Origin: Candidatus Magasanikiibacteriota bacterium
Lineage (GTDB): Bacteria; Patescibacteriota; Patescibacteriia; Magasanikbacterales; UBA922
DNA: 64,000 bases
Reading direction: 5' to 3'
Assembly (NCBI GenBank): GCA_043825135.1
Contig: JBDRSF010000015.1
Coordinates: forward strand, 1,559-65,558
Shown: positions 1 to 61,660 of the stretch, piece by piece
Layout: the number at the start of each line of letters is the position of its first letter
Position numbering within the stretch: position 1 is the first letter of the stretch
Position numbers and translations under genes: made by a program
Notes under the pieces: model-generated
What the model was told of the DNA's origin: nothing
Databases searched by the model: none
Seen by the model: the letters and a program-made list of their open reading frames with translations, nothing else

Positions 1-63
1 TGTAGAAAAGATTATTTATTAATTTGTCATTCTGAACTCGGAATGACATTGTGAAAAAAAAAT

Positions 64-804
64 ATGAAATACGTATTTGGAAATTGGAAAATGTATCTTG
101 ACTTTGACGAGTCAAATATTTTGATAAATGGTTTGTTACAAGAAAAATTTGATAGTGAAAAAGTTAATTTAGCTGTTTTTCCTTCTACTTTAGCTCTGCG
201 TGAGGTCATTATGGCTACAGAAAATACCGAATTTGATATTGGTGCCCAAAATGTAGCCTGGGTAGAGAAGGGTGCTTATACCGGAGCTGTTTCAGCGCAA
301 ATGTTTGGTGATGTTGGTTGTAGGTATGCGTTAGTTGGACATTCTGAACGCCGTTATATTTTTGGTGAAACAAATAATGATGTTAGAAAAAAGATTGAAG
401 CTTGTCTGACAGCAAATATTATTCCAGTGGTTTGTATTGGTGAGACAGAAGAGGATTTAGAAGCAGGTAAACGAGAATATAGACTAAAAAAACAGTTGAT
501 GAAAGCTTTTGAAGATTTAGAATTAAATGGTGGTAAAGTAATAGTGGCCTATGAGCCAGTATGGGCCATTGGCACAGGTAAGGCCTGTGATCCTGCCACC
601 GCAGAAGAGATGCATGTTTGGATAAAATCAGAATTAAAGCAATATTTTGATGGTGATATTCCAGTTTTATATGGTGGTAGCGTAAGTCCAGAAAATGTGT
701 TATCATATGTAGCACTTGATGTAATAGATGGTGTATTGGTCGGAGGCGCATCGGCAAAATTAGATAGTTTTATTAGCTTGATTAAAGCTGTAGAAGAAGT
801 ATAA
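64..804 (+). CDS. tpiA: triosephosphate isomerase
   Basis: 246 aa; TIM motifs GHSERR, AYEPVWAIGTG and a C-terminal GGASLK-like segment. Confidence 0.93.
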   Translation: MKYVFGNWKMYLDFDESNILINGLLQEKFDSEKVNLAVFPSTLALREVIMATENTEFDIGAQNVAWVEKGAYTGAVSAQMFGDVGCRYALVGHSERRYIFGETNNDVRKKIEACLTANIIPVVCIGETEEDLEAGKREYRLKKQLMKAFEDLELNGGKVIVAYEPVWAIGTGKACDPATAEEMHVWIKSELKQYFDGDIPVLYGGSVSPENVLSYVALDVIDGVLVGGASAKLDSFISLIKAVEEV

Positions 805-912
805 TCCTAATCTACTAATTTTTATCCGAATCTACTAATGTCCGAATAATAACGAATATTTGTAGTATTAGGATAATAGTAGATTCGGATAGTATTAGTA
901 AATTCGGACTAT

Positions 913-1833
913 ATGTATAGTATCTTACCATTCATTCTTATACTATTTTCACTTACAGTGATCGTTATTGTAATTGTACGAAAATTTCCTCAACTTACTT
1001 TATTAGATGTGGAATCAATACCAGTCATCAAAATGAATAAGAAAAAAGATGAATTTTTAAAGAAAAAAGCCGAAAAAAAAGCTGAAGTAGTTACAAAAAA
1101 ACAAAAAGAAATGATAAAACCACTTTTCAGGAAGTTAAAAGATTTTCAATCTTGGTTTAGAAAAGTTGTTTTGGATGTTTATCATAAAACACAAGAAAAG
1201 AAGGTTAGTAAAAAAAATATAATAGTAAATAATTCTATTGATAAAGTTGAGACAGATAGTTTGACTAACAAAGAGGATGATATAAAAAAATTGATAATTG
1301 ACGGTGAGAGAGCTCTACAAGATAAAGATTTAGAACTCGCTGAGAATAAGTTTATTGAAGCCATAAGGATTGATTCCAAAAATAAGGGAGCTTATTTTGG
1401 TCTAGCAAATGTTTATATTGAAAAGGAAGAATGGGATGATGCAGGAGGAACTTTGGAATTTTTATTAAAAATAGATCCAGAAAACGCCAAAGTTTTACTT
1501 TCTTTGGCGCAGATTTTTGAGAAAAAAGATGATTTGGAAAAAGCAGTGGAGTATTACGAAAGAGCAGCCATTGCTGATGACAGTAGAGCTGAGACTTTTG
1601 ATAGAATAGGGGATTTATTATTGGACATTAATCAATGTGAGAGCGCTCTTGAAGCAATGCGTCAAGCCAATGAATTGGAACCTGAAAATCAGACATATCT
1701 TGACAAAATCATAGATATTAGTGTAAAATGTGGTAATAAACAATTGGCTGATGAATATTATCAAAAATTACGTATGTTAGATCCTGATAACAATAGGCTA
1801 ACTGTTTTACGAGGAAAGATTGACTCAGATTAA
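913..1833 (+). CDS. TPR-repeat protein with N-terminal membrane anchor
   Basis: N-terminal hydrophobic helix, lysine-rich linker, then several tetratricopeptide-like repeats (AYFGLANVY..., KVLLSLAQIF..., AVEYYERAA...). Confidence 0.6.
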   Translation: MYSILPFILILFSLTVIVIVIVRKFPQLTLLDVESIPVIKMNKKKDEFLKKKAEKKAEVVTKKQKEMIKPLFRKLKDFQSWFRKVVLDVYHKTQEKKVSKKNIIVNNSIDKVETDSLTNKEDDIKKLIIDGERALQDKDLELAENKFIEAIRIDSKNKGAYFGLANVYIEKEEWDDAGGTLEFLLKIDPENAKVLLSLAQIFEKKDDLEKAVEYYERAAIADDSRAETFDRIGDLLLDINQCESALEAMRQANELEPENQTYLDKIIDISVKCGNKQLADEYYQKLRMLDPDNNRLTVLRGKIDSD

Positions 1834-1886
1834 AATCTAGTATATAATGTTCGTACTCTTTAAAAAAATATAGGTAATAATATTAT

Positions 1887-1962
1887 GCCAACTTAGCTCA
1901 GCTGGTAGAGCAACGGTTTTGTAAACCGTCGGTCCGGGGTTCGAGTCCCCGAGTTGGCTCCA
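1887..1962 (+). tRNA. tRNA-Thr(UGU), CCA encoded
   Basis: Cloverleaf by eye: acceptor GCCAACT/AGTTGGC, D-arm GCTC-AGCTGGTA-GAGC, anticodon stem ACGGT/ACCGT with loop TTTGTAA (anticodon TGT), T-arm CGGGG-TTCGAGT-CCCCG, 3' CCA. Confidence 0.8.
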
Positions 1963-2120
1963 CGAAAAATGGCGTTAGCCATTTTGAGTGGTCACGTGAT
2001 AACCGGTAGGTTATTTTACGTGACAAGGTTTGTGGTAATACAAAGGCGCCATCTCGTGGTGCCACCAGTATGAGGTGGTTCATTACAAAACAAAGTAAGT
2101 AGTTTACATGTACTGCTAGC

Positions 2121-2131
2121 TGTGATATAAT
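2121..2131 (+). promoter_or_regulatory. extended -10 promoter (TGTGATATAAT)
   Basis: TGnTATAAT-type element 7 nt upstream of the ATG at 2138. Confidence 0.45.
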
Positions 2132-2137
2132 ATATTC

Positions 2138-2752
2138 ATGGCAAAAGTAGATGAAAAAAATTTAGAAGTTATTAGTGGATTATATAAATTAGGATTGAGT
2201 ATTAGAGAGATAGCTTGTAAATATAGCGTTTCAGTCGATGCGATGTTTTATTTTTTCCGTAAGCATAAAATAAAAAGAAGAACCGCTAAAGAAAGTAATA
2301 AATTTTTGTTTGAGAGGAAAAAAGCTTCTTTTTATATAAAGAAAAAACTAAGCATTAAAGAAGAGAGTCTAAAAACAGCTGGTATAATGTTATACTGGGC
2401 TGAAGGTTCTAAATGGGATGGTGAGAAAATTGTTGATTTTGCGAATAGTGATTCGGACATGATAAAGACTTTTTTAGTTTTTCTTAGAGAGATATGTGGT
2501 GTTGACGAGAGTAAATTGCGAGTTTATCTGTATTGTTTTTCCAATCAGGATGTGGATAGATTAAAAAAGTTTTGGTCGAAAGAGACCGATATAAATTTGA
2601 ATCAATTTACAAAACCGTATATAAAAAAAGATTATAATTTGTCCAAAACAAGTAAAATGAAGCACGGTCTTATTCACATAAGATATAATGATAAAAAATT
2701 ACTACAACAAATTAGGAATTGGATTGAAGAATATAAAAATAAGTATAATTAA
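2138..2752 (+). CDS. HTH-domain protein with degenerate LAGLIDADG-like homing-endonuclease region (free-standing)
   Basis: N-terminal helix-turn-helix (LGLSIREIACKYSVS). Central IMLYWAEGSKWDGE resembles a degenerate LAGLIDADG motif. Basic, Lys-rich. Lies between tRNA-Thr and the intron-containing tRNA-Tyr. Confidence 0.35.
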   Translation: MAKVDEKNLEVISGLYKLGLSIREIACKYSVSVDAMFYFFRKHKIKRRTAKESNKFLFERKKASFYIKKKLSIKEESLKTAGIMLYWAEGSKWDGEKIVDFANSDSDMIKTFLVFLREICGVDESKLRVYLYCFSNQDVDRLKKFWSKETDINLNQFTKPYIKKDYNLSKTSKMKHGLIHIRYNDKKLLQQIRNWIEEYKNKYN

Positions 2753-3049
2753 GGGTGGGTTCCCGAGCGGTCAAAGGGGACAGACTGTAAGTTAAATTGC
2801 AGCCCTTAGAGGAAACTCTAAGGTGAACTCTCTGGGATAACGGTGAAAGCTAAGTTTGCTAATTAGTAGATATGCTAATACCGTGGGAACCCTGACATAA
2901 GTCGGGGAGCGCCGTAGAGACTAGATACCAGAGTACCTAAATTTATTTTATAAATAAGGTAAAGATATAGTCCACACCAAAAGGAAACTTTTGGGTTAGT
3001 GAAATCTGTTGGCTCCGCCTTCGGAGGTTCGAATCCTCCCCCACCCACA
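2753..3049 (+). tRNA. tRNA-Tyr(GUA) interrupted by a group I intron in the anticodon loop
   Basis: Exon 1 GGGTGGGTTCCCGAGCGGTCAAAGGGGACAGACTGT is near-identical to E. coli tRNA-Tyr. Exon 2 AAATCTGTTGG-CTCCGCCTTCGGAG (long variable arm)-GTTCGAATCCTCC-CCCACCC-A. Spliced loop is CUGUAAA. Acceptor GGGTGGG/CCCACCC. Confidence 0.75.
2789..3001 (+). ncRNA. group I intron (~213 nt) within tRNA-Tyr anticodon loop
   Basis: Contains the canonical group I S element AAGATATAGTCC (2961-2972) and P7-type GTAGAGACTAGA (compare the Azoarcus tRNA-Ile intron). 5' exon ends in U. Intron ends in G (omega-G). P-like AAATTGCAGCCC near the 5' end. No ORF inside. Confidence 0.7.
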
Positions 3050-3106
3050 AAAAAACTAATCAATAAAAATGATTAGTTTTTTGTTTTATTAAAAAATAAG
3101 CATTAG

Positions 3107-3227
3107 ACCAGCGGTCAAAGGGGACAGACTGCCCCGCCTGAAAGGACGGGGTCCCGTCCAGGCAGAGCCTGGCGGGATAAATCTGTTGGCTCCGTCTTCG
3201 GAGGTTCGAATCCTCCCCTGCCCGCCA
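3107..3227 (+). pseudogene. degenerate second tRNA-Tyr-like copy with a 46-nt structured insertion in the anticodon loop and mismatched acceptor strands
   Basis: CCAGCGGTCAAAGGGGACAGACTG, a 46-nt insert of two hairpins (CCCCG..CGGGG; TCCCG-CCAGGC..GCCTGG-CGGGA), then TAAATCTGTTGGCTCCGTCTTCGGAGGTTCGAATCCTCC-CCTGCCCG-CCA. D-arm, anticodon stem, variable arm and T-arm match the upstream tRNA-Tyr. The 5' acceptor strand is not complementary to the 3' end. Confidence 0.4.
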
Positions 3228-3267
3228 ATTTGGTAAATTAGTAATTTTGTTTATTATTTTATTGGTT

Positions 3268-3297
3268 AAAAACGGCTTTGACGCCGTTTTTTTGTTT
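3268..3297 (+). terminator. rho-independent terminator
   Basis: AAAAACGGC-TTTGAC-GCCGTTTTTTTGTTTTTTT hairpin plus T-tract after the tRNA cluster. Confidence 0.6.
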
Positions 3298-3361
3298 TTT
3301 TATTATTTTTATATTATACTAAAATTATCTAATCTTTTAGTAATTCATTATATTAACCCTC

Positions 3362-3412
3362 CGAAAGATCCCTCGTCGCTCTTCGCTACGCTCGGACTCA
3401 CTCGGGATTGCG
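3362..3412. repeat. family C short palindromic element (GAAAGATCCCTCGTCG...CTCGGGATT), copy 1 of 3, immediately upstream of mutM
   Basis: The same ~55-nt element with conserved ends recurs at 45805-45861 (before metK) and 61593-61647 (before dnaK), each ending 10-14 nt before the start codon. Confidence 0.7.
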
Positions 3413-3421
3413 ATTGAAAAT

Positions 3422-4320: not shown

Positions 4321-4395
4321 GGAGCCGTCATCCAGGATTGAACTGGAGACCTCAGCCTTACCATGGCTGCGCTCTACCAACTGAGCTATGACGGC
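4321..4395 (-). tRNA. tRNA-Thr(GGU)
   Basis: Reverse complement folds as GCCGTCA-TA-GCTC-AGTTGGTA-GAGC-G-CAGCC-ATGGTAA-GGCTG-AGGTC-TCCAG-TTCAATC-CTGGA-TGACGGC; anticodon GGT. Confidence 0.75.
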
Positions 4396-52549: not shown

Positions 52550-52730
52550 CTGTCATTCCGACCGAAACCCCGATGAAATACGGGGTGGAGTGGAGGAATC
52601 CCTTTTCTTTACACTATATTTAGTATTAAATAAAATTTTCCTTGATGCATTTGTTGGTGCATTAAAAAGGGATCCCTGCGCCACCGCTAAAGCTTTAGCG
52701 ACACGCGGTCGACTACGCTCGGGATGACAA
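52550..52730. repeat. family B MITE-like element (second full copy)
   Basis: CCTGTCATTCCGACCGAAACCCCGATGAAATACGGGGTGGAGTGGAGGAATCCCTTTTC...GGGATCCCTGCGCCACCGCTAAAGCTTTAGCGACACGCGGTCGACTACGCTCGGGATGACAAC. Confidence 0.75.
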
Positions 52731-52775
52731 CGGAAACATATATCCACAGCGTAAAATGACCTGTAAAGGTCATCG

Positions 52776-54934: not shown

Positions 54935-54943
54935 TTGTCGCAA

Positions 54944-55088
54944 TGTCATCCCGACCGAAACGAGTGAGCCCTCGCGGGCGAGTGAGTGTAGTGGAGGGAT
55001 CCCTTTCTTAAAATAAATAATTTCTAAGAAAGGGATTCCTCCGCTTTGTTCATCCTTCGCGAGAAGGATTCACGTCGGTCGGAATGAC
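54944..55088. repeat. family B-variant MITE-like element with TIRs TGTCATCCCGACCG / CGGTCGGAATGACA
   Basis: Inverted terminal repeats seen directly; internal GAGGGATCCCTTT / AAAGGGATTCCTCC. Confidence 0.65.
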
Positions 55089-60449: not shown

Positions 60450-60890
60450 ATGTTACCAAGAATATATGATCCCTTTGAGGAGATGGAAGAAATGATGAGA
60501 CATCTTCCTTCCGTTCGTAATACCAATGCTATTCAACCAAGGGGTTTTGTGCCAGCTTTAGACGTATACGAGACTAAGACCTCTGTTATGGTAGAAACAC
60601 CTCTGGCTGGAATTAATCCCAAGGATGTTGAGGTCAGTGTTGAAAAAGGAATTCTCACAATCCAAGGTGAAAGTAAAAAAGAACACGAAGTAGAAGAAAA
60701 AAACTATTATCGCAAAGAAGTTCGCTCTGGTTCATTTTATCGTAAAGTTGATTTACCAAAACCTGTAAAAGAAGACGAAGTAACTGCCGAGTTTGAAGAT
60801 GGAATTTTGAAGATTACTTGTCCTAAGGCTGAGCCGAGTGTTAGTAAGAAAGTTGCGGTGAAGGTGGTGAAGAAGGGGAAGCGGGTGTAG
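60450..60890 (+). CDS. Hsp20/alpha-crystallin family small heat-shock protein
   Basis: Alpha-crystallin domain PALDVYETKTSVMVETPLAGINPKDVEVSVEKGILTIQGE...AEFEDGILKI. Confidence 0.88.
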   Translation: MLPRIYDPFEEMEEMMRHLPSVRNTNAIQPRGFVPALDVYETKTSVMVETPLAGINPKDVEVSVEKGILTIQGESKKEHEVEEKNYYRKEVRSGSFYRKVDLPKPVKEDEVTAEFEDGILKITCPKAEPSVSKKVAVKVVKKGKRV

Positions 60891-60896
60891 ACGCGT

Positions 60897-60958
60897 TGTC
60901 ATCCCGAGTGGATTCACCGTATCTTTAGCGGAGGTGAAGAAGTCGAGGGATCCCTTTC
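60897..60958. repeat. family B-related short element (TGTCATCCCGAGTGG...GTCGAGGGATCCCTTTCG)
   Basis: Shares TGTCATCCCGAG and GGGATCCCTTT blocks with family B. Confidence 0.5.
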
Positions 60959-61592: not shown

Positions 61593-61647
61593 GAAAGATC
61601 CCTCGTCGTTCACCTGCGCTCACGCTTGGTGACCTCGCTCGGGATTA
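61593..61647. repeat. family C element, copy 3, immediately upstream of dnaK
   Basis: GAAAGATCCCTCGTCG-TTCACCTGCGCTCACGCTTGGTGACCTCG-CTCGGGATT ends 13 nt before the ATG. Confidence 0.7.
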
Positions 61648-61660
61648 ACGAAAAAATTCT

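What the first reader, a model, noticed from the sequence alone, without database searches (positions are those of the whole stretch)
2138..3230. tRNA-Tyr gene split by a group I intron, with a free-standing LAGLIDADG-like ORF and a decayed second copy
Exon sequences match bacterial tRNA-Tyr(GUA) closely (E. coli-like GGTGGGGTTCCCGAGCGGCCAAAGGG...CAGACTGTAAATCTG...). A ~213-nt insert in the anticodon loop carries the group I S element AAGATATAGTCC and a P7-like GTAGAGACTAGA. It has 5'-exon U and terminal G. Group I introns in bacterial tRNAs are known mainly for Leu(UAA), fMet, Ile and Arg; a Tyr host would be unusual. The intron has no ORF. A 204-aa HTH plus degenerate-LAGLIDADG-like protein is encoded immediately upstream, and a second, degenerate tRNA-Tyr copy lies immediately downstream. 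This looks like the footprint of homing or duplication activity.
Basis: partly seen in the sequence, partly recalled or inferred. Interest (0 to 1): 0.78.

Follow-up and report, generated by a model that had tools for sequence, protein, structure and literature searches.

The report
Intron-split tRNA-Tyr gene with nuclease-like neighbour
A candidate-phyla-radiation bacterium carries its tyrosine tRNA gene split by a genuine self-splicing-type group I intron, a kind published in 2026, while the nuclease-like gene beside it belongs to a large, undescribed family that sits against tRNA genes whether or not an intron is present.

Summary
Window 2753-3047 is a tRNA-Tyr(GUA) gene split between U35 and A36 by a 213-nt group I intron (2789-3001). 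It scores 70.4 bits on Rfam RF00028. The U·G splice pair, terminal G and P1-P9 helices are supported by covariation in 20 homologous tRNA-Tyr introns. Excising it gives a canonical tRNA-Tyr.

The organism is a Ca. Magasanikbacteria (Patescibacteria) MAG. This intron family, inserted at 35/36 in tRNA-Asn, Asp and one Tyr, was published in January 2026 (PMC13011429). The intron is therefore a new member of a known kind.

Other nuclease families occupy the same spot at other loci. I found no report of this in the held literature.

The second tRNA-Tyr copy (3108-3227) is real and non-functional. It occurs in only 1 of 93 intron-bearing loci. A homing origin is possible but unproven.

The parts
1887..1962 (+). 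tRNA-Thr(UGU), the conserved upstream neighbour in the tRNA cluster
   Evidence: ARAGORN; Rfam tRNA 71.1 bits. The same tRNA lies about 60 nt upstream of the ORF in relatives.
2103..2131 (+). Promoter-like site TTTACA-17-TATAAT with TG extension. Its -10 box ends 6 nt before the ORF's ATG, so the mRNA is inferred to be leaderless.
   Evidence: Consensus scan, 11 of 12 matches. The same architecture sits in front of the ORF in nearly all of about 50 related loci.
2138..2752 (+). 204-aa ORF. N-terminal HTH at about residues 6-42. C-terminal LAGLIDADG-like domain at about residues 73-203. Invariant E89-G90 at 2402-2407.
2753..2788 (+). tRNA-Tyr(GUA) 5' exon, G1 to U35
   Evidence: The spliced sequence is called tRNA-Tyr(gta) by ARAGORN.
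2789..3001 (+). Group I intron, 213 nt, no ORF. Helices: P1 2785-2789/2798-2802; P2 2804-2811/2816-2823; P3 2830-2835/2928-2933; P4 2840-2845/2879-2884; P5 2849-2850/2874-2875; P5a 2855-2857/2868-2870; P6 2885-2892/2905-2913; P7 2919-2923/2968-2972; P8 2934-2937/2958-2961; P9.0 2974-2975/2999-3000; P9 2977-2983/2988-2994. Terminal G at 3001.
   Evidence: Rfam RF00028 70.4 bits. RNAalifold consensus. Helix coordinates. Pair counts: 96.6% of cells paired, 32 of 60 pairs with compensatory change, 0 of 500 shuffles as good.
3002..3047 (+). tRNA-Tyr 3' exon, A36 to discriminator A73. CCA is not encoded.
3056..3087 (+). AT-rich hairpin CTAATCA/TGATTAG followed by a T run. Possibly a weak terminator after the first tRNA gene.
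   Evidence: Read from the sequence. It does not qualify in the terminator scan, which requires G+C pairs.
3108..3131 (+). Second copy, block A: D loop, D stem 3' strand and anticodon stem up to G34. The 5' acceptor strand is missing.
   Evidence: Direct comparison. Not called a tRNA.
3132..3177 (+). 46-nt GC-rich insert that can form two hairpins, sitting in the anticodon loop of the second copy. It has no similarity to the intron.
   Evidence: Fold z = -3.1 for 3090-3240. Unique in the window, in the 204 loci fetched, and in viral contigs.
3178..3227 (+). Second copy, block B: U35 to the 3' end. Positions 3178-3218 match the first copy at 40 of 41. The acceptor 3' strand reads CCTGCCC-G-CCA, against CCCACCC-A-CA in the first copy.
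   Evidence: Local alignment; sequence.
3268..3301 (+). Intrinsic-terminator-like hairpin plus T run after the second copy

Best explanation
The locus holds three separable things.

1. **The tRNA gene and its intron.** This is the only tRNA-Tyr(GUA) gene in the window, in a Ca. Magasanikbacteria (Patescibacteria) genome. A 213-nt ORF-less group I intron interrupts it between U35 and A36. The intron belongs to the published Patescibacteria '35/36' family. Inferred mechanism:
   - The precursor is transcribed from the promoter at 2103-2131, through the ORF and into the tRNA.
   - Anticodon-loop bases C32-U35 plus the first intron base (a second A-U pair can be drawn by eye) pair with the internal guide UUGCAG to form P1, with a U35·G wobble at the splice site.
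   - An external guanosine attacks after U35. The terminal G (3001) is then used for exon ligation.
   - RNase P, 3' trimming and CCA addition finish the tRNA.

2. **The upstream ORF.** It is a cassette of promoter plus leaderless gene, encoding an HTH plus LAGLIDADG-like protein. The family is large, and its members are inserted exactly at the 5' end of tRNA-Tyr genes (rarely tRNA-Thr or tRNA-Asn) whether or not the tRNA has an intron. It is most likely a free-standing homing-endonuclease-type selfish gene, or a domesticated descendant. It is not the intron's own mobility protein.

3. **The second copy.** It is a non-functional partial duplicate that arose in this lineage only. It has lost its first 12 or so bases and gained a 46-nt hairpin insert.

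**Shown:** sequence, fold, conservation and gene order. **Inferred:** splicing, nuclease activity and the history of the duplicate.
For: **Intron.**
- RF00028 70.4 bits, E = 9.4e-18.
- 20 homologous tRNA-Tyr introns give one consensus with P1-P9.
- 96.6% of cells are paired, against 31-43% when partners are slid. 32 of 60 pairs show compensatory change. 0 of 500 shuffles reach the observed values.
- The U·G pair at the splice site and the terminal G are present in 20 of 20. P3 and P8 covary. P4 and P7 are invariant.
- The spliced product is a canonical tRNA-Tyr.

**Family.**
- The same core sequence occurs in tRNA-Asn (about 47 loci), tRNA-Asp (about 22) and tRNA-Tyr (24), always at 35/36.
- The window's ten nearest introns are all in tRNA-Tyr, at 75-83% identity.
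- PMC13011429 reports this family, includes one Tyr(GUA) case, and shows in vitro self-splicing for Asn and Asp members.

**Organism.** P0001 is 100% identical and named Ca. Magasanikbacteria.

**ORF.**
- In 78 of 78 evaluable GTDB loci it ends within -43 to +23 nt of a tRNA 5' end. 73 are tRNA-Tyr, of which 5 carry the intron.
- A consensus promoter abuts the ATG in nearly all loci.
- Empty sites exist: tRNA-Thr, an 11-nt spacer, then tRNA-Tyr in L169, and a similar ORF-free junction in L201. L125 keeps only a 22-codon 3' remnant.
- Other nuclease families sit in the same position: LAGLIDADG_3, PD-(D/E)XK and HNH.

**Second copy.** Not a tRNA by any detector. Seen in 1 of 93 loci. Present in a second assembly.
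Against: - No RNA data were available, so splicing in vivo and co-transcription with the ORF are inferred.
- The rest of the genome is not visible, so a second intact tRNA-Tyr elsewhere cannot be excluded.
- The ORF's C-terminal domain matches no LAGLIDADG sequence model.
- 50-60% identity across many CPR lineages at a fixed position would also fit a vertically inherited host gene.
- The second copy's differences from the first cluster in the acceptor 3' strand. A simple recent duplication does not predict this.
Confidence: 0.8

Rival explanations
1. Collaborative homing. The upstream ORF is an active free-standing endonuclease that cuts intron-less tRNA-Tyr genes at or near the 35/36 site. 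The ORF-less intron protects its own genome from that cut and is copied in trans during repair. The second copy is a scar of one such event.
For: - Nuclease-type ORFs abut most intron-bearing tRNA genes of this intron family. That is 17 of 23 tRNA-Tyr loci (A1 family, LAGLIDADG_3 or PD-(D/E)XK), 14 of 19 tRNA-Asp loci (double LAGLIDADG), and about 7 of 39 tRNA-Asn loci (HNH or A1-like).
- The ORF shows presence/absence polymorphism and decay.
- Precedents exist in phages: F-CphI with the psbA intron (PMC6083498) and mobE with I-TevIII (PMC2790892).
Against: - 68 of 73 tRNA-Tyr genes next to this ORF family have no intron, yet would have to survive the enzyme.
- 3 of 3 sampled members of the tRNA-Asp LAGLIDADG family abut intron-less tRNA-Asp.
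- Closely related introns sit beside different upstream arrangements.
- The sample of intron-bearing loci has no matched unbiased control, so the 74% figure may only reflect how common these cassettes are in the same clades.
Confidence: 0.15
2. The ORF is a domesticated, non-cutting DNA-binding protein, analogous to WhiA. It is kept by the host, for example to regulate the tRNA operon it is transcribed with. Its link to tRNA-Tyr is ordinary conserved gene order.
For: - 50-60% identity with many invariant residues across many CPR lineages.
- At least 501 species, in a fixed position.
- WhiA is among the top structural matches.
- The motif is degenerate and no LAGLIDADG sequence model matches.
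Against: - Empty sites and a 3' remnant in otherwise syntenic loci.
- Paralogues sit before tRNA-Thr and tRNA-Asn.
- Unrelated nuclease families replace it at the same spot.
- The acidic residue at the catalytic position is invariant, whereas WhiA has lost it (established knowledge, not tested here).
- In 38 of 73 loci the ORF has no stop codon of its own before the tRNA.
Confidence: 0.25
3. The second copy is functional. It could be a tRNA-like RNA, or the attachment-site repeat of an integrated element.
For: - The region folds stably, z = -3.1.
- It ends in an encoded GCCA and is followed by a good terminator.
- The 40 of 41 identity in the T-arm half could reflect selection or gene conversion.
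Against: - It is found in 1 of 93 related loci, so there is no conservation.
- It has no 5' acceptor strand and cannot form a cloverleaf.
- No promoter-like site lies in front of it.
- Only 60 nt separate it from the intact gene, so no element lies between the repeats.
- The insert sequence is found nowhere else that I searched.
Confidence: 0.08
4. The intron is a dead relic, and the split gene is a pseudogene.
For: None specific. ARAGORN and the default Rfam scan do not see the gene.
Against: - Every core helix is intact in the window sequence.
- The invariant core columns of the family are retained.
- The family shows compensatory substitutions, which implies selection on the fold.
- Exons give a perfect tRNA-Tyr.
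- No other tRNA-Tyr lies in the 64 kb.
Confidence: 0.03

Closest known systems
Group I introns at position 35/36 of Patescibacteria tRNA genes (Nakagawa, Amikura, Omae, Suzuki, mSystems 2026, PMC13011429)
   Same: - Same phylum and same insertion site, between anticodon bases 35 and 36 of a GUN anticodon.
- Same size class; the paper reports 184-894 nt, mean 257.
- Mostly no internal endonuclease gene.
[quoted passage not shown]
- The paper's table lists one Tyr(GUA) 35/36 case, GCA_016699995.1.
   Different: - This is a different genome and class (Ca. Magasanikbacteria).
- The paper's splicing assays were on Asn and Asp introns, not Tyr.
- The paper assigns the family to subgroup IA; I did not test the subgroup.
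- The paper counted only endonuclease genes inside introns and concluded that mobility is limited. It does not mention nuclease genes abutting the tRNA 5' end.
Classical bacterial tRNA group I introns: cyanobacterial tRNA-Leu(UAA) and tRNA-fMet, Azoarcus tRNA-Ile, Agrobacterium tRNA-Arg (established knowledge; review PMC3984707)
   Same: - A small ORF-less ribozyme in the anticodon loop.
- P1 is built from anticodon-loop bases with a U·G pair at the splice site.
   Different: - Different insertion positions (33/34, 34/35, 36/37).
- Different host tRNAs and phyla.
- These are mostly subgroup IC3, according to the literature.
Free-standing homing endonucleases working with ORF-less introns: F-CphI and the psbA intron of cyanophage S-PM2 (PMC6083498); T4 mobE and I-TevIII (PMC2790892). 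T4 SegB in the phage tRNA cluster is from my own knowledge.
   Same: - A nuclease-type gene with its own promoter lies beside, not inside, a gene that carries an ORF-less group I intron.
- The cassette is present in some syntenic loci and absent in others.
   Different: - Here the cassette is mostly found beside intron-less tRNA genes.
- No cleavage site is known.
- The host is a cellular genome, not a phage.
- The protein family is not a recognised endonuclease family by sequence.
WhiA (two degenerate LAGLIDADG domains plus a C-terminal HTH; a bacterial transcription factor)
   Same: - Combines an HTH with a LAGLIDADG-type fold.
   Different: - One LAGLIDADG-like domain rather than two.
- The HTH is N-terminal.
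- The acidic residue at the catalytic position is retained.
- Only a weak, below-threshold WhiA_N hit was seen, and on a different ORF family.

Membership tests
Group I intron (Rfam RF00028) | Covariance-model score at or above the curated gathering score | tested here: met
   70.4 bits against 50, E = 9.4e-18, model positions 1-253. Missed by the whole-window scan with default filters.
Group I intron (Rfam RF00028) | P1 helix formed with the 5' exon, with a U·G wobble at the 5' splice site | tested here: met
   CUGU|A pairs with UGCAG. The U·G pair is present in 20 of 20 introns. The adjacent pair covaries among AU, GU, CG and GC.
Group I intron (Rfam RF00028) | Conserved core: P3-P8 and P4-P6 domains with the P3/P7 pseudoknot | tested here: met
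   P3: 5 of 6 pairs with compensatory change. P8: 3 of 4. P2: 8 of 8. P4 and P7 pair in 100% of cells but never vary, so they are uninformative. Overall 96.6% paired against 31-43% for slid controls.
Group I intron (Rfam RF00028) | Terminal guanosine at the 3' splice site, with P9.0 just before it | tested here: met
   G in 20 of 20. The P9.0 pair covaries, CG 13, UA 5, UG 2.
Group I intron (Rfam RF00028) | Guanosine-dependent self-splicing | not testable with these tools
   Shown in vitro for tRNA-Asn and tRNA-Asp members of the same family in PMC13011429, not for this sequence.
Patescibacteria 35/36 tRNA introns (PMC13011429) | Insertion between anticodon positions 35 and 36 | tested here: met
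   The 5' exon ends ...CUGU and the 3' exon starts AAAUC. The spliced loop reads CUGUAAA.
Patescibacteria 35/36 tRNA introns (PMC13011429) | Host is a Patescibacteria genome | tested here: met
   The identical protein is named Ca. Magasanikbacteria. The related loci are Patescibacteria MAGs.
Patescibacteria 35/36 tRNA introns (PMC13011429) | [quoted passage not shown] | tested here: met
   The shared core GGATAACGGTGAA...CGTAGAGACTAGATAC occurs in about 47 Asn, 22 Asp and 24 Tyr loci. Mean Tyr-Asn identity is 67% and Tyr-Asp 68%.
Patescibacteria 35/36 tRNA introns (PMC13011429) | Structural subgroup IA | not tested
   No subgroup models were available. The paper assigns 25 of 28 introns at 35/36 to IA.
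LAGLIDADG homing endonuclease | Match to a LAGLIDADG sequence model (Pfam PF00961, PF03161, PF14528) | tested here: not met
   No Pfam family matches the window ORF at E <= 1 or ten divergent relatives. hhalign against a PF14528-positive ORF aligns only the HTH.
LAGLIDADG homing endonuclease | LAGLIDADG core fold | tested here: inconclusive
LAGLIDADG homing endonuclease | Acidic residue followed by Gly at the C-terminal end of the motif helix | tested here: met
   The sequence is ...LYWAEG.... E89 and G90 are invariant in 24 of 24 sequences, at the end of helix 73-89. That this is the catalytic position is inferred, not superposed.
LAGLIDADG homing endonuclease | Site-specific DNA cleavage | not testable with these tools
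   Needs a biochemical assay.
Free-standing endonuclease plus ORF-less intron (collaborative homing) | The cassette is an insertion with its own promoter and shows presence/absence polymorphism | tested here: met
   Promoter abutting the ATG. Empty sites in L169 and L201, and a remnant in L125.
Free-standing endonuclease plus ORF-less intron (collaborative homing) | Cassette and intron travel together | tested here: not met
   68 of 73 cassette-linked tRNA-Tyr genes are intron-less. 3 of 3 sampled tRNA-Asp cassettes are beside intron-less tRNA-Asp. The nearest introns have different neighbours.
Free-standing endonuclease plus ORF-less intron (collaborative homing) | The intron interrupts the enzyme's recognition site | not testable with these tools
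   The target site is unknown.
tRNA gene (second copy, 3108-3227) | Cloverleaf detectable by a tRNA finder or model | tested here: not met
   No ARAGORN call with or without the 46-nt insert. Rfam tRNA models give only weak matches to fragments of the region (16 bits against gathering scores of 29 and 47).

The most novel reading that the evidence does not exclude
The ORF-less 35/36 tRNA introns of Patescibacteria are not immobile, as was concluded from their lack of internal endonuclease genes. They would be mobilised in trans by free-standing nuclease cassettes parked exactly at the 5' end of the same GUN-anticodon tRNA genes. These cassettes are HTH plus LAGLIDADG-like, LAGLIDADG_3, PD-(D/E)XK or HNH. 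The intron would act as the immunity determinant against the neighbouring nuclease. The window's truncated second tRNA-Tyr copy would be the scar of an imperfect repair event. The HTH plus LAGLIDADG-like family would then be a new, sequence-divergent branch of homing endonucleases. Its members are expressed as leaderless messages and often borrow their stop codon from the tRNA.
Probability: 0.2. Interest if true: 0.7.

Novelty: new member of a known kind. Interest (0 to 1): 0.42.

Why it matters
**The intron itself is now textbook-adjacent.** It is one more example of a family described in 2026. It confirms that tRNA-Tyr is a regular, not exceptional, host: 24 cases here against one in the paper.

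**Practical point.** Default tRNA and Rfam scans miss the gene. Genomes like this one will therefore be scored as lacking tRNA-Tyr.

**The part worth following up is the neighbour.** A large protein family is present in at least 501 species and forms 140 clusters at 50% identity with E < 1e-30. Its members, and at least three other nuclease families, are inserted precisely at the 5' end of tRNA genes in very small genomes. They carry their own promoter. Often they have no stop codon of their own.

If these proteins are active endonucleases, two things follow. The published inference that these introns rarely move would need revisiting. The system would also give a testable cellular example of intron and endonuclease collaboration, which so far is known from phages.

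Tried and rejected
1. **Whole-window Rfam scan and ARAGORN** found neither the intron nor the tRNA-Tyr. A restricted scan was needed.
2. **Brute-force excision with ARAGORN** was far too permissive, because almost any splice gave some tRNA. I had to add the rules seen in six hand-checked introns: 5' exon ending at position 35, intron ending in TG about 28-29 nt after ATAGTCC.
4. **Sequence routes to LAGLIDADG** all failed beyond the HTH: Pfam, NCBIfam and PHROGs on the ORF, Pfam on ten divergent relatives, a profile against PDB sequences, and hhalign against a LAGLIDADG_3 ORF.
5. **A possible ORF remnant upstream of the second copy.** A 12-nt match (AAAAATAAG[T/C]AT) lies upstream of both tRNA copies. 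428 of 1000 shuffles score as well, so I rejected it.
6. **The 46-nt insert as an intron remnant, repeat or ribozyme.**
   - It is unique in the window.
   - It is absent from the 204 loci fetched by then and from viral contigs.
   - By eye it has no similarity to the intron and no hammerhead-type core. I ran no ribozyme model on it.
7. **Integration of a mobile element at the tRNA** was rejected, because only 60 nt lie between the intact gene and the partial copy.
8. **An unbiased sample of intron-less tRNA-Tyr loci** from the Asn and Asp contigs yielded none. Enrichment of the cassette at intron-bearing genes therefore could not be measured.
9. **The hairpin-rich spacer 1963-2102** has no Rfam match.
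Full report
**What is in the sequence.** Window 2753-3047 reads as a bacterial tRNA-Tyr(GUA) gene with a 213-nt insert. The 5' part, GGGTGGGTTCCCGAGCGGTCAAAGGGGACAGACTGT, ends at 2788. The 3' part, AAATCTGTTGGCTCCGCCTTCGGAGGTTCGAATCCTCCCCCACCCA, starts at 3002. Joined, they give an 82-nt sequence that ARAGORN folds as tRNA-Tyr(gta) with a long variable arm. ARAGORN on the raw window finds four tRNAs but not this one. The default whole-window Rfam scan also misses the insert. When 2600-3400 is searched with laxer filters, Rfam RF00028 (group I intron) matches 2779-2994 over its whole length, at 70.4 bits against a gathering score of 50 and E = 9.4e-18. The base before the insert is U and the last base of the insert is G.

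**Where the window comes from.** The 204-aa ORF at 2138-2752 is 100% identical to a protein of a Candidatus Magasanikbacteria MAG. Neighbouring genes are ordinary: triose-phosphate isomerase, a TPR protein, Fpg and TspO. A separately assembled Logan contig from run SRR26275509 is identical over window 55-3409, so the whole arrangement, including the second copy, is not an artefact of one assembly.

**Is it a real group I intron?** I collected homologues in two ways.
- Loci encoding relatives of the ORF in GTDB species genomes gave five more tRNA-Tyr genes with an intron at the same place. Four were found by Rfam and one by eye.

After excising the intron by rules derived from the hand-checked cases, the hosts were tRNA-Asn (about 47), tRNA-Asp (about 22) and tRNA-Tyr (24 including the window). 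All were at position 35/36.

Twenty distinct tRNA-Tyr introns with 10-nt exon flanks were aligned. RNAalifold returned the anticodon stem, P1, P2, P3, P4, P5, P5a, P6, P8, P9.0 and P9. I added P7 by hand. Counting pairs gave the following:
- 96.6% of cells are standard pairs, against 31-43% when the 3' partners are slid by 1-3 columns.
- 32 of 60 pairs have compensatory changes.
- None of 500 column shuffles reaches the observed values.
- The U·G pair at the 5' splice site and the terminal G are present in 20 of 20.
- P2, P3, P8 and P9 covary strongly.
- P4 and P7 are invariant, which says nothing either way but means the P3/P7 pseudoknot can be drawn in every sequence.

Splicing itself is inferred.

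**Is it new?** No. Nakagawa et al. (mSystems 2026, PMC13011429) describe group I introns at 35/36 in Patescibacteria tRNA-Asn and tRNA-Asp and show in vitro self-splicing. Their table lists one Tyr(GUA) 35/36 intron, in GCA_016699995.1. They assign 25 of 28 introns at 35/36 to subgroup IA and report that only 12 of 333 bacterial tRNA introns contain an endonuclease gene. The window's intron shares its core with the Asn and Asp introns. Its ten nearest relatives are all tRNA-Tyr introns at 75-83% identity. It is a new member of that family. I did not test the subgroup.

**The upstream ORF.** No Pfam, NCBIfam or PHROG model matches its C-terminal two thirds. The N-terminus is an HTH related to 2lvs and the UPF0122/YlxM type. 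The family is large:
- more than 1000 proteins in the word-indexed search;
- 501 confirmed stretches in GTDB species genomes;
- 140 clusters at 50% identity with E < 1e-30, and 2284 with E < 1e-10.

**The ORF is tied to the tRNA, not to the intron.** In the 80 GTDB loci the reading frame ends within -43 to +23 nt of the 5' end of a tRNA gene in all 78 that can be judged.
- 73 are tRNA-Tyr and 5 are tRNA-Thr.
- Only 5 of the 73 tRNA-Tyr genes carry the intron.
- In 38 of the 73 the stop codon lies inside the tRNA gene.
- In 16 of those the stop is the TAA formed by U35-A36-A37 of the anticodon loop.

In nearly all loci a near-consensus promoter (TTTACA, 17 nt, TATAAT) ends 6-8 nt before the ATG. 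There is no room for a ribosome-binding site, which implies a leaderless message that runs on into the tRNA.

The cassette is an insertion.
- L169 has tRNA-Thr, an 11-nt spacer and tRNA-Tyr with no ORF, and L201 has a similar ORF-free junction.
- L125 keeps only the last 22 codons.
- Paralogues sit directly before tRNA-Thr(UGU) in L078 and before tRNA-Asn in L116 and L164.

Among 18 metagenome loci chosen only for having an intron in tRNA-Tyr, the family lies directly upstream in 9 and a few hundred bases downstream in 3. It is absent or replaced in the rest.

**Other nucleases in the same place.**
- Before intron-bearing tRNA-Tyr genes that lack this ORF I found HTH plus LAGLIDADG_3 proteins (L137, L196) and a PD-(D/E)XK endonuclease of family PF11645 (L130, E = 2.5e-27).
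- Before intron-bearing tRNA-Asp genes, a double-motif LAGLIDADG_3 protein of about 225 aa ends 11-39 nt inside the tRNA in 14 of 19 loci.
- Before tRNA-Asn, small HNH-like proteins occur in 4-5 of 39 loci.

The tRNA-Asp LAGLIDADG family has more than 1100 members. The three members I looked up all abut intron-less tRNA-Asp genes, inserted between tRNA-Met and tRNA-Asp. Nuclease cassette and intron are therefore separable in both systems, although they favour the same GUN-anticodon tRNAs. The held literature gave no report of this arrangement, and the 2026 paper counted only endonuclease genes inside introns. Without an unbiased set of intron-less loci I could not measure whether cassettes are enriched at intron-bearing genes.

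**What this means for the homing idea.**
- For: nuclease cassettes are very frequent next to intron-bearing genes, and there are signs of cassette gain and decay.
- Against: 68 of 73 cassette-linked tRNA-Tyr genes are intron-less. All 3 sampled Asp cassettes are next to intron-less genes. The window's closest introns sit beside a PD-(D/E)XK gene (L130, 83%), a distant A1 member (L115, 83%) and no cassette at all (L169, 80%).

I rate it about 0.15-0.2. A domesticated WhiA-like regulator is the other live alternative for the protein, at about 0.25.

**The second copy.** Positions 3108-3131 repeat the first gene from the D loop to G34. Positions 3178-3218 repeat it from U35 through the T arm, 40 of 41 identical. 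Between them lies a 46-nt, 72% G+C insert that can form two hairpins. It is unrelated to the intron and I found it nowhere else.

The copy lacks the 5' acceptor strand and part of the D stem. Its 3' acceptor strand differs (CCTGCCC-G-CCA against CCCACCC-A-CA). No detector calls it a tRNA, with or without the insert. No promoter-like site precedes it. A good terminator follows at 3268-3301, and the hairpin after the first gene is AT-rich, so it may be transcribed by read-through.

Of 93 intron-bearing loci, only the window has such a copy. It is best read as a lineage-specific partial duplication that has decayed. A short match that looked like a remnant of the ORF's 3' end upstream of it is not significant. 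A repair scar of a nuclease-induced break is conceivable, but nothing I could compute shows it.

**Verdict.**
- The intron is genuine and almost certainly functional, but it belongs to a family published in January 2026.
- The LAGLIDADG-like call is supported at the fold level only.
- The most interesting result is incidental: several nuclease families, including a large undescribed one, are inserted exactly at the 5' end of tRNA genes across the candidate phyla radiation.

Noticed in passing
window 2138-2752, and loci L005-L084: The ORF family ends against a tRNA gene in 78 of 78 evaluable GTDB loci (73 tRNA-Tyr, 5 tRNA-Thr). In 38 of the 73 tRNA-Tyr loci the stop codon lies inside the tRNA gene. 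In 16 of those it is the TAA formed by U35-A36-A37 of the anticodon loop. RNase P cleavage would therefore leave a message without a stop codon.
   Followed up: partly
window 2103-2137, and the 70 nt upstream of the ORF in about 50 loci: A near-consensus promoter (TTTACA, 17 nt, TATAAT) ends 6-8 nt before the ATG in nearly every locus, with no Shine-Dalgarno sequence. The cassette seems to bring its own promoter and to be translated as a leaderless mRNA.
   Followed up: partly
L130, L137, L196 (tRNA-Tyr); L086, L104, L109, L127, L129, L135, L154, L182 and others (tRNA-Asp); L142, L143, L145, L174 (tRNA-Asn): Other nuclease families occupy the same position directly upstream of intron-bearing tRNA genes. 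These are PD-(D/E)XK PF11645, HTH plus LAGLIDADG_3, a double LAGLIDADG_3 whose stop lies 11-39 nt inside tRNA-Asp (14 of 19 loci), and small HNH-like proteins. I found no report of this in the held literature.
   Followed up: partly
L206, L208, L212 (and duplicates L207, L209-L211, L213-L217): The tRNA-Asp LAGLIDADG family has more than 1100 proteins. It also abuts intron-less tRNA-Asp genes, inserted between tRNA-Met and tRNA-Asp, in all three members sampled.
   Followed up: yes
L169 and L201 (empty site), L125 (remnant): Syntenic loci with TPR gene, tRNA-Thr and tRNA-Tyr lack the ORF; in L169 an 11-nt spacer sits in its place. L125 keeps only the last 22 codons of the ORF before tRNA-Tyr. 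This looks like gain and decay of the cassette.
   Followed up: partly
L078 1189-1770 (minus strand): A second, 39%-identical paralogue of the ORF lies directly upstream of tRNA-Thr(UGU) on the opposite strand, in the same locus that has the ORF before tRNA-Tyr.
   Followed up: no
window 1963-2102: The spacer between tRNA-Thr(UGU) and the ORF's promoter is about 115 nt longer than in relatives. It folds into three strong hairpins (z = -5.4), the first of which looks like a terminator. There is no Rfam match and the sequence is unique in the window.
   Followed up: partly
window 41022-41078 and 52668-52737; 3356-3413 and 61597-61650; also 42079-42145, 54937-55008, 60855-60911: Short GC-rich intergenic islands in a 35% G+C genome. 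Some are near-identical repeats (AGGGATCCCTGCGCCACCGCTAAAGC...CGCTCGGGA). Others share GTCATCCCGA or GATCCCTCGTCG...CTCGGGAT motifs. They may be a miniature repeat family.
   Followed up: no
window 4321-4395 (minus strand): tRNA-Thr(GGU) is on the minus strand here and separated from tRNA-Tyr by the fpg gene. In many relatives it follows tRNA-Tyr on the same strand. This suggests a local rearrangement near the duplicated tRNA-Tyr.
   Followed up: no
L008 3149-3521: One tRNA-Tyr intron is 373 nt long because of a roughly 170-nt extension, flanked by a long inverted repeat, in the P8 region. I did not check it for an ORF or a nested element.
   Followed up: no
window 2600-3400 compared with the whole window: Rfam's default filters on the 64-kb window miss a 70-bit group I intron that is found when 800 nt are searched. 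L022's intron was missed even in the 42-kb 'evalue' run. Surveys with default settings will undercount these introns.
   Followed up: yes
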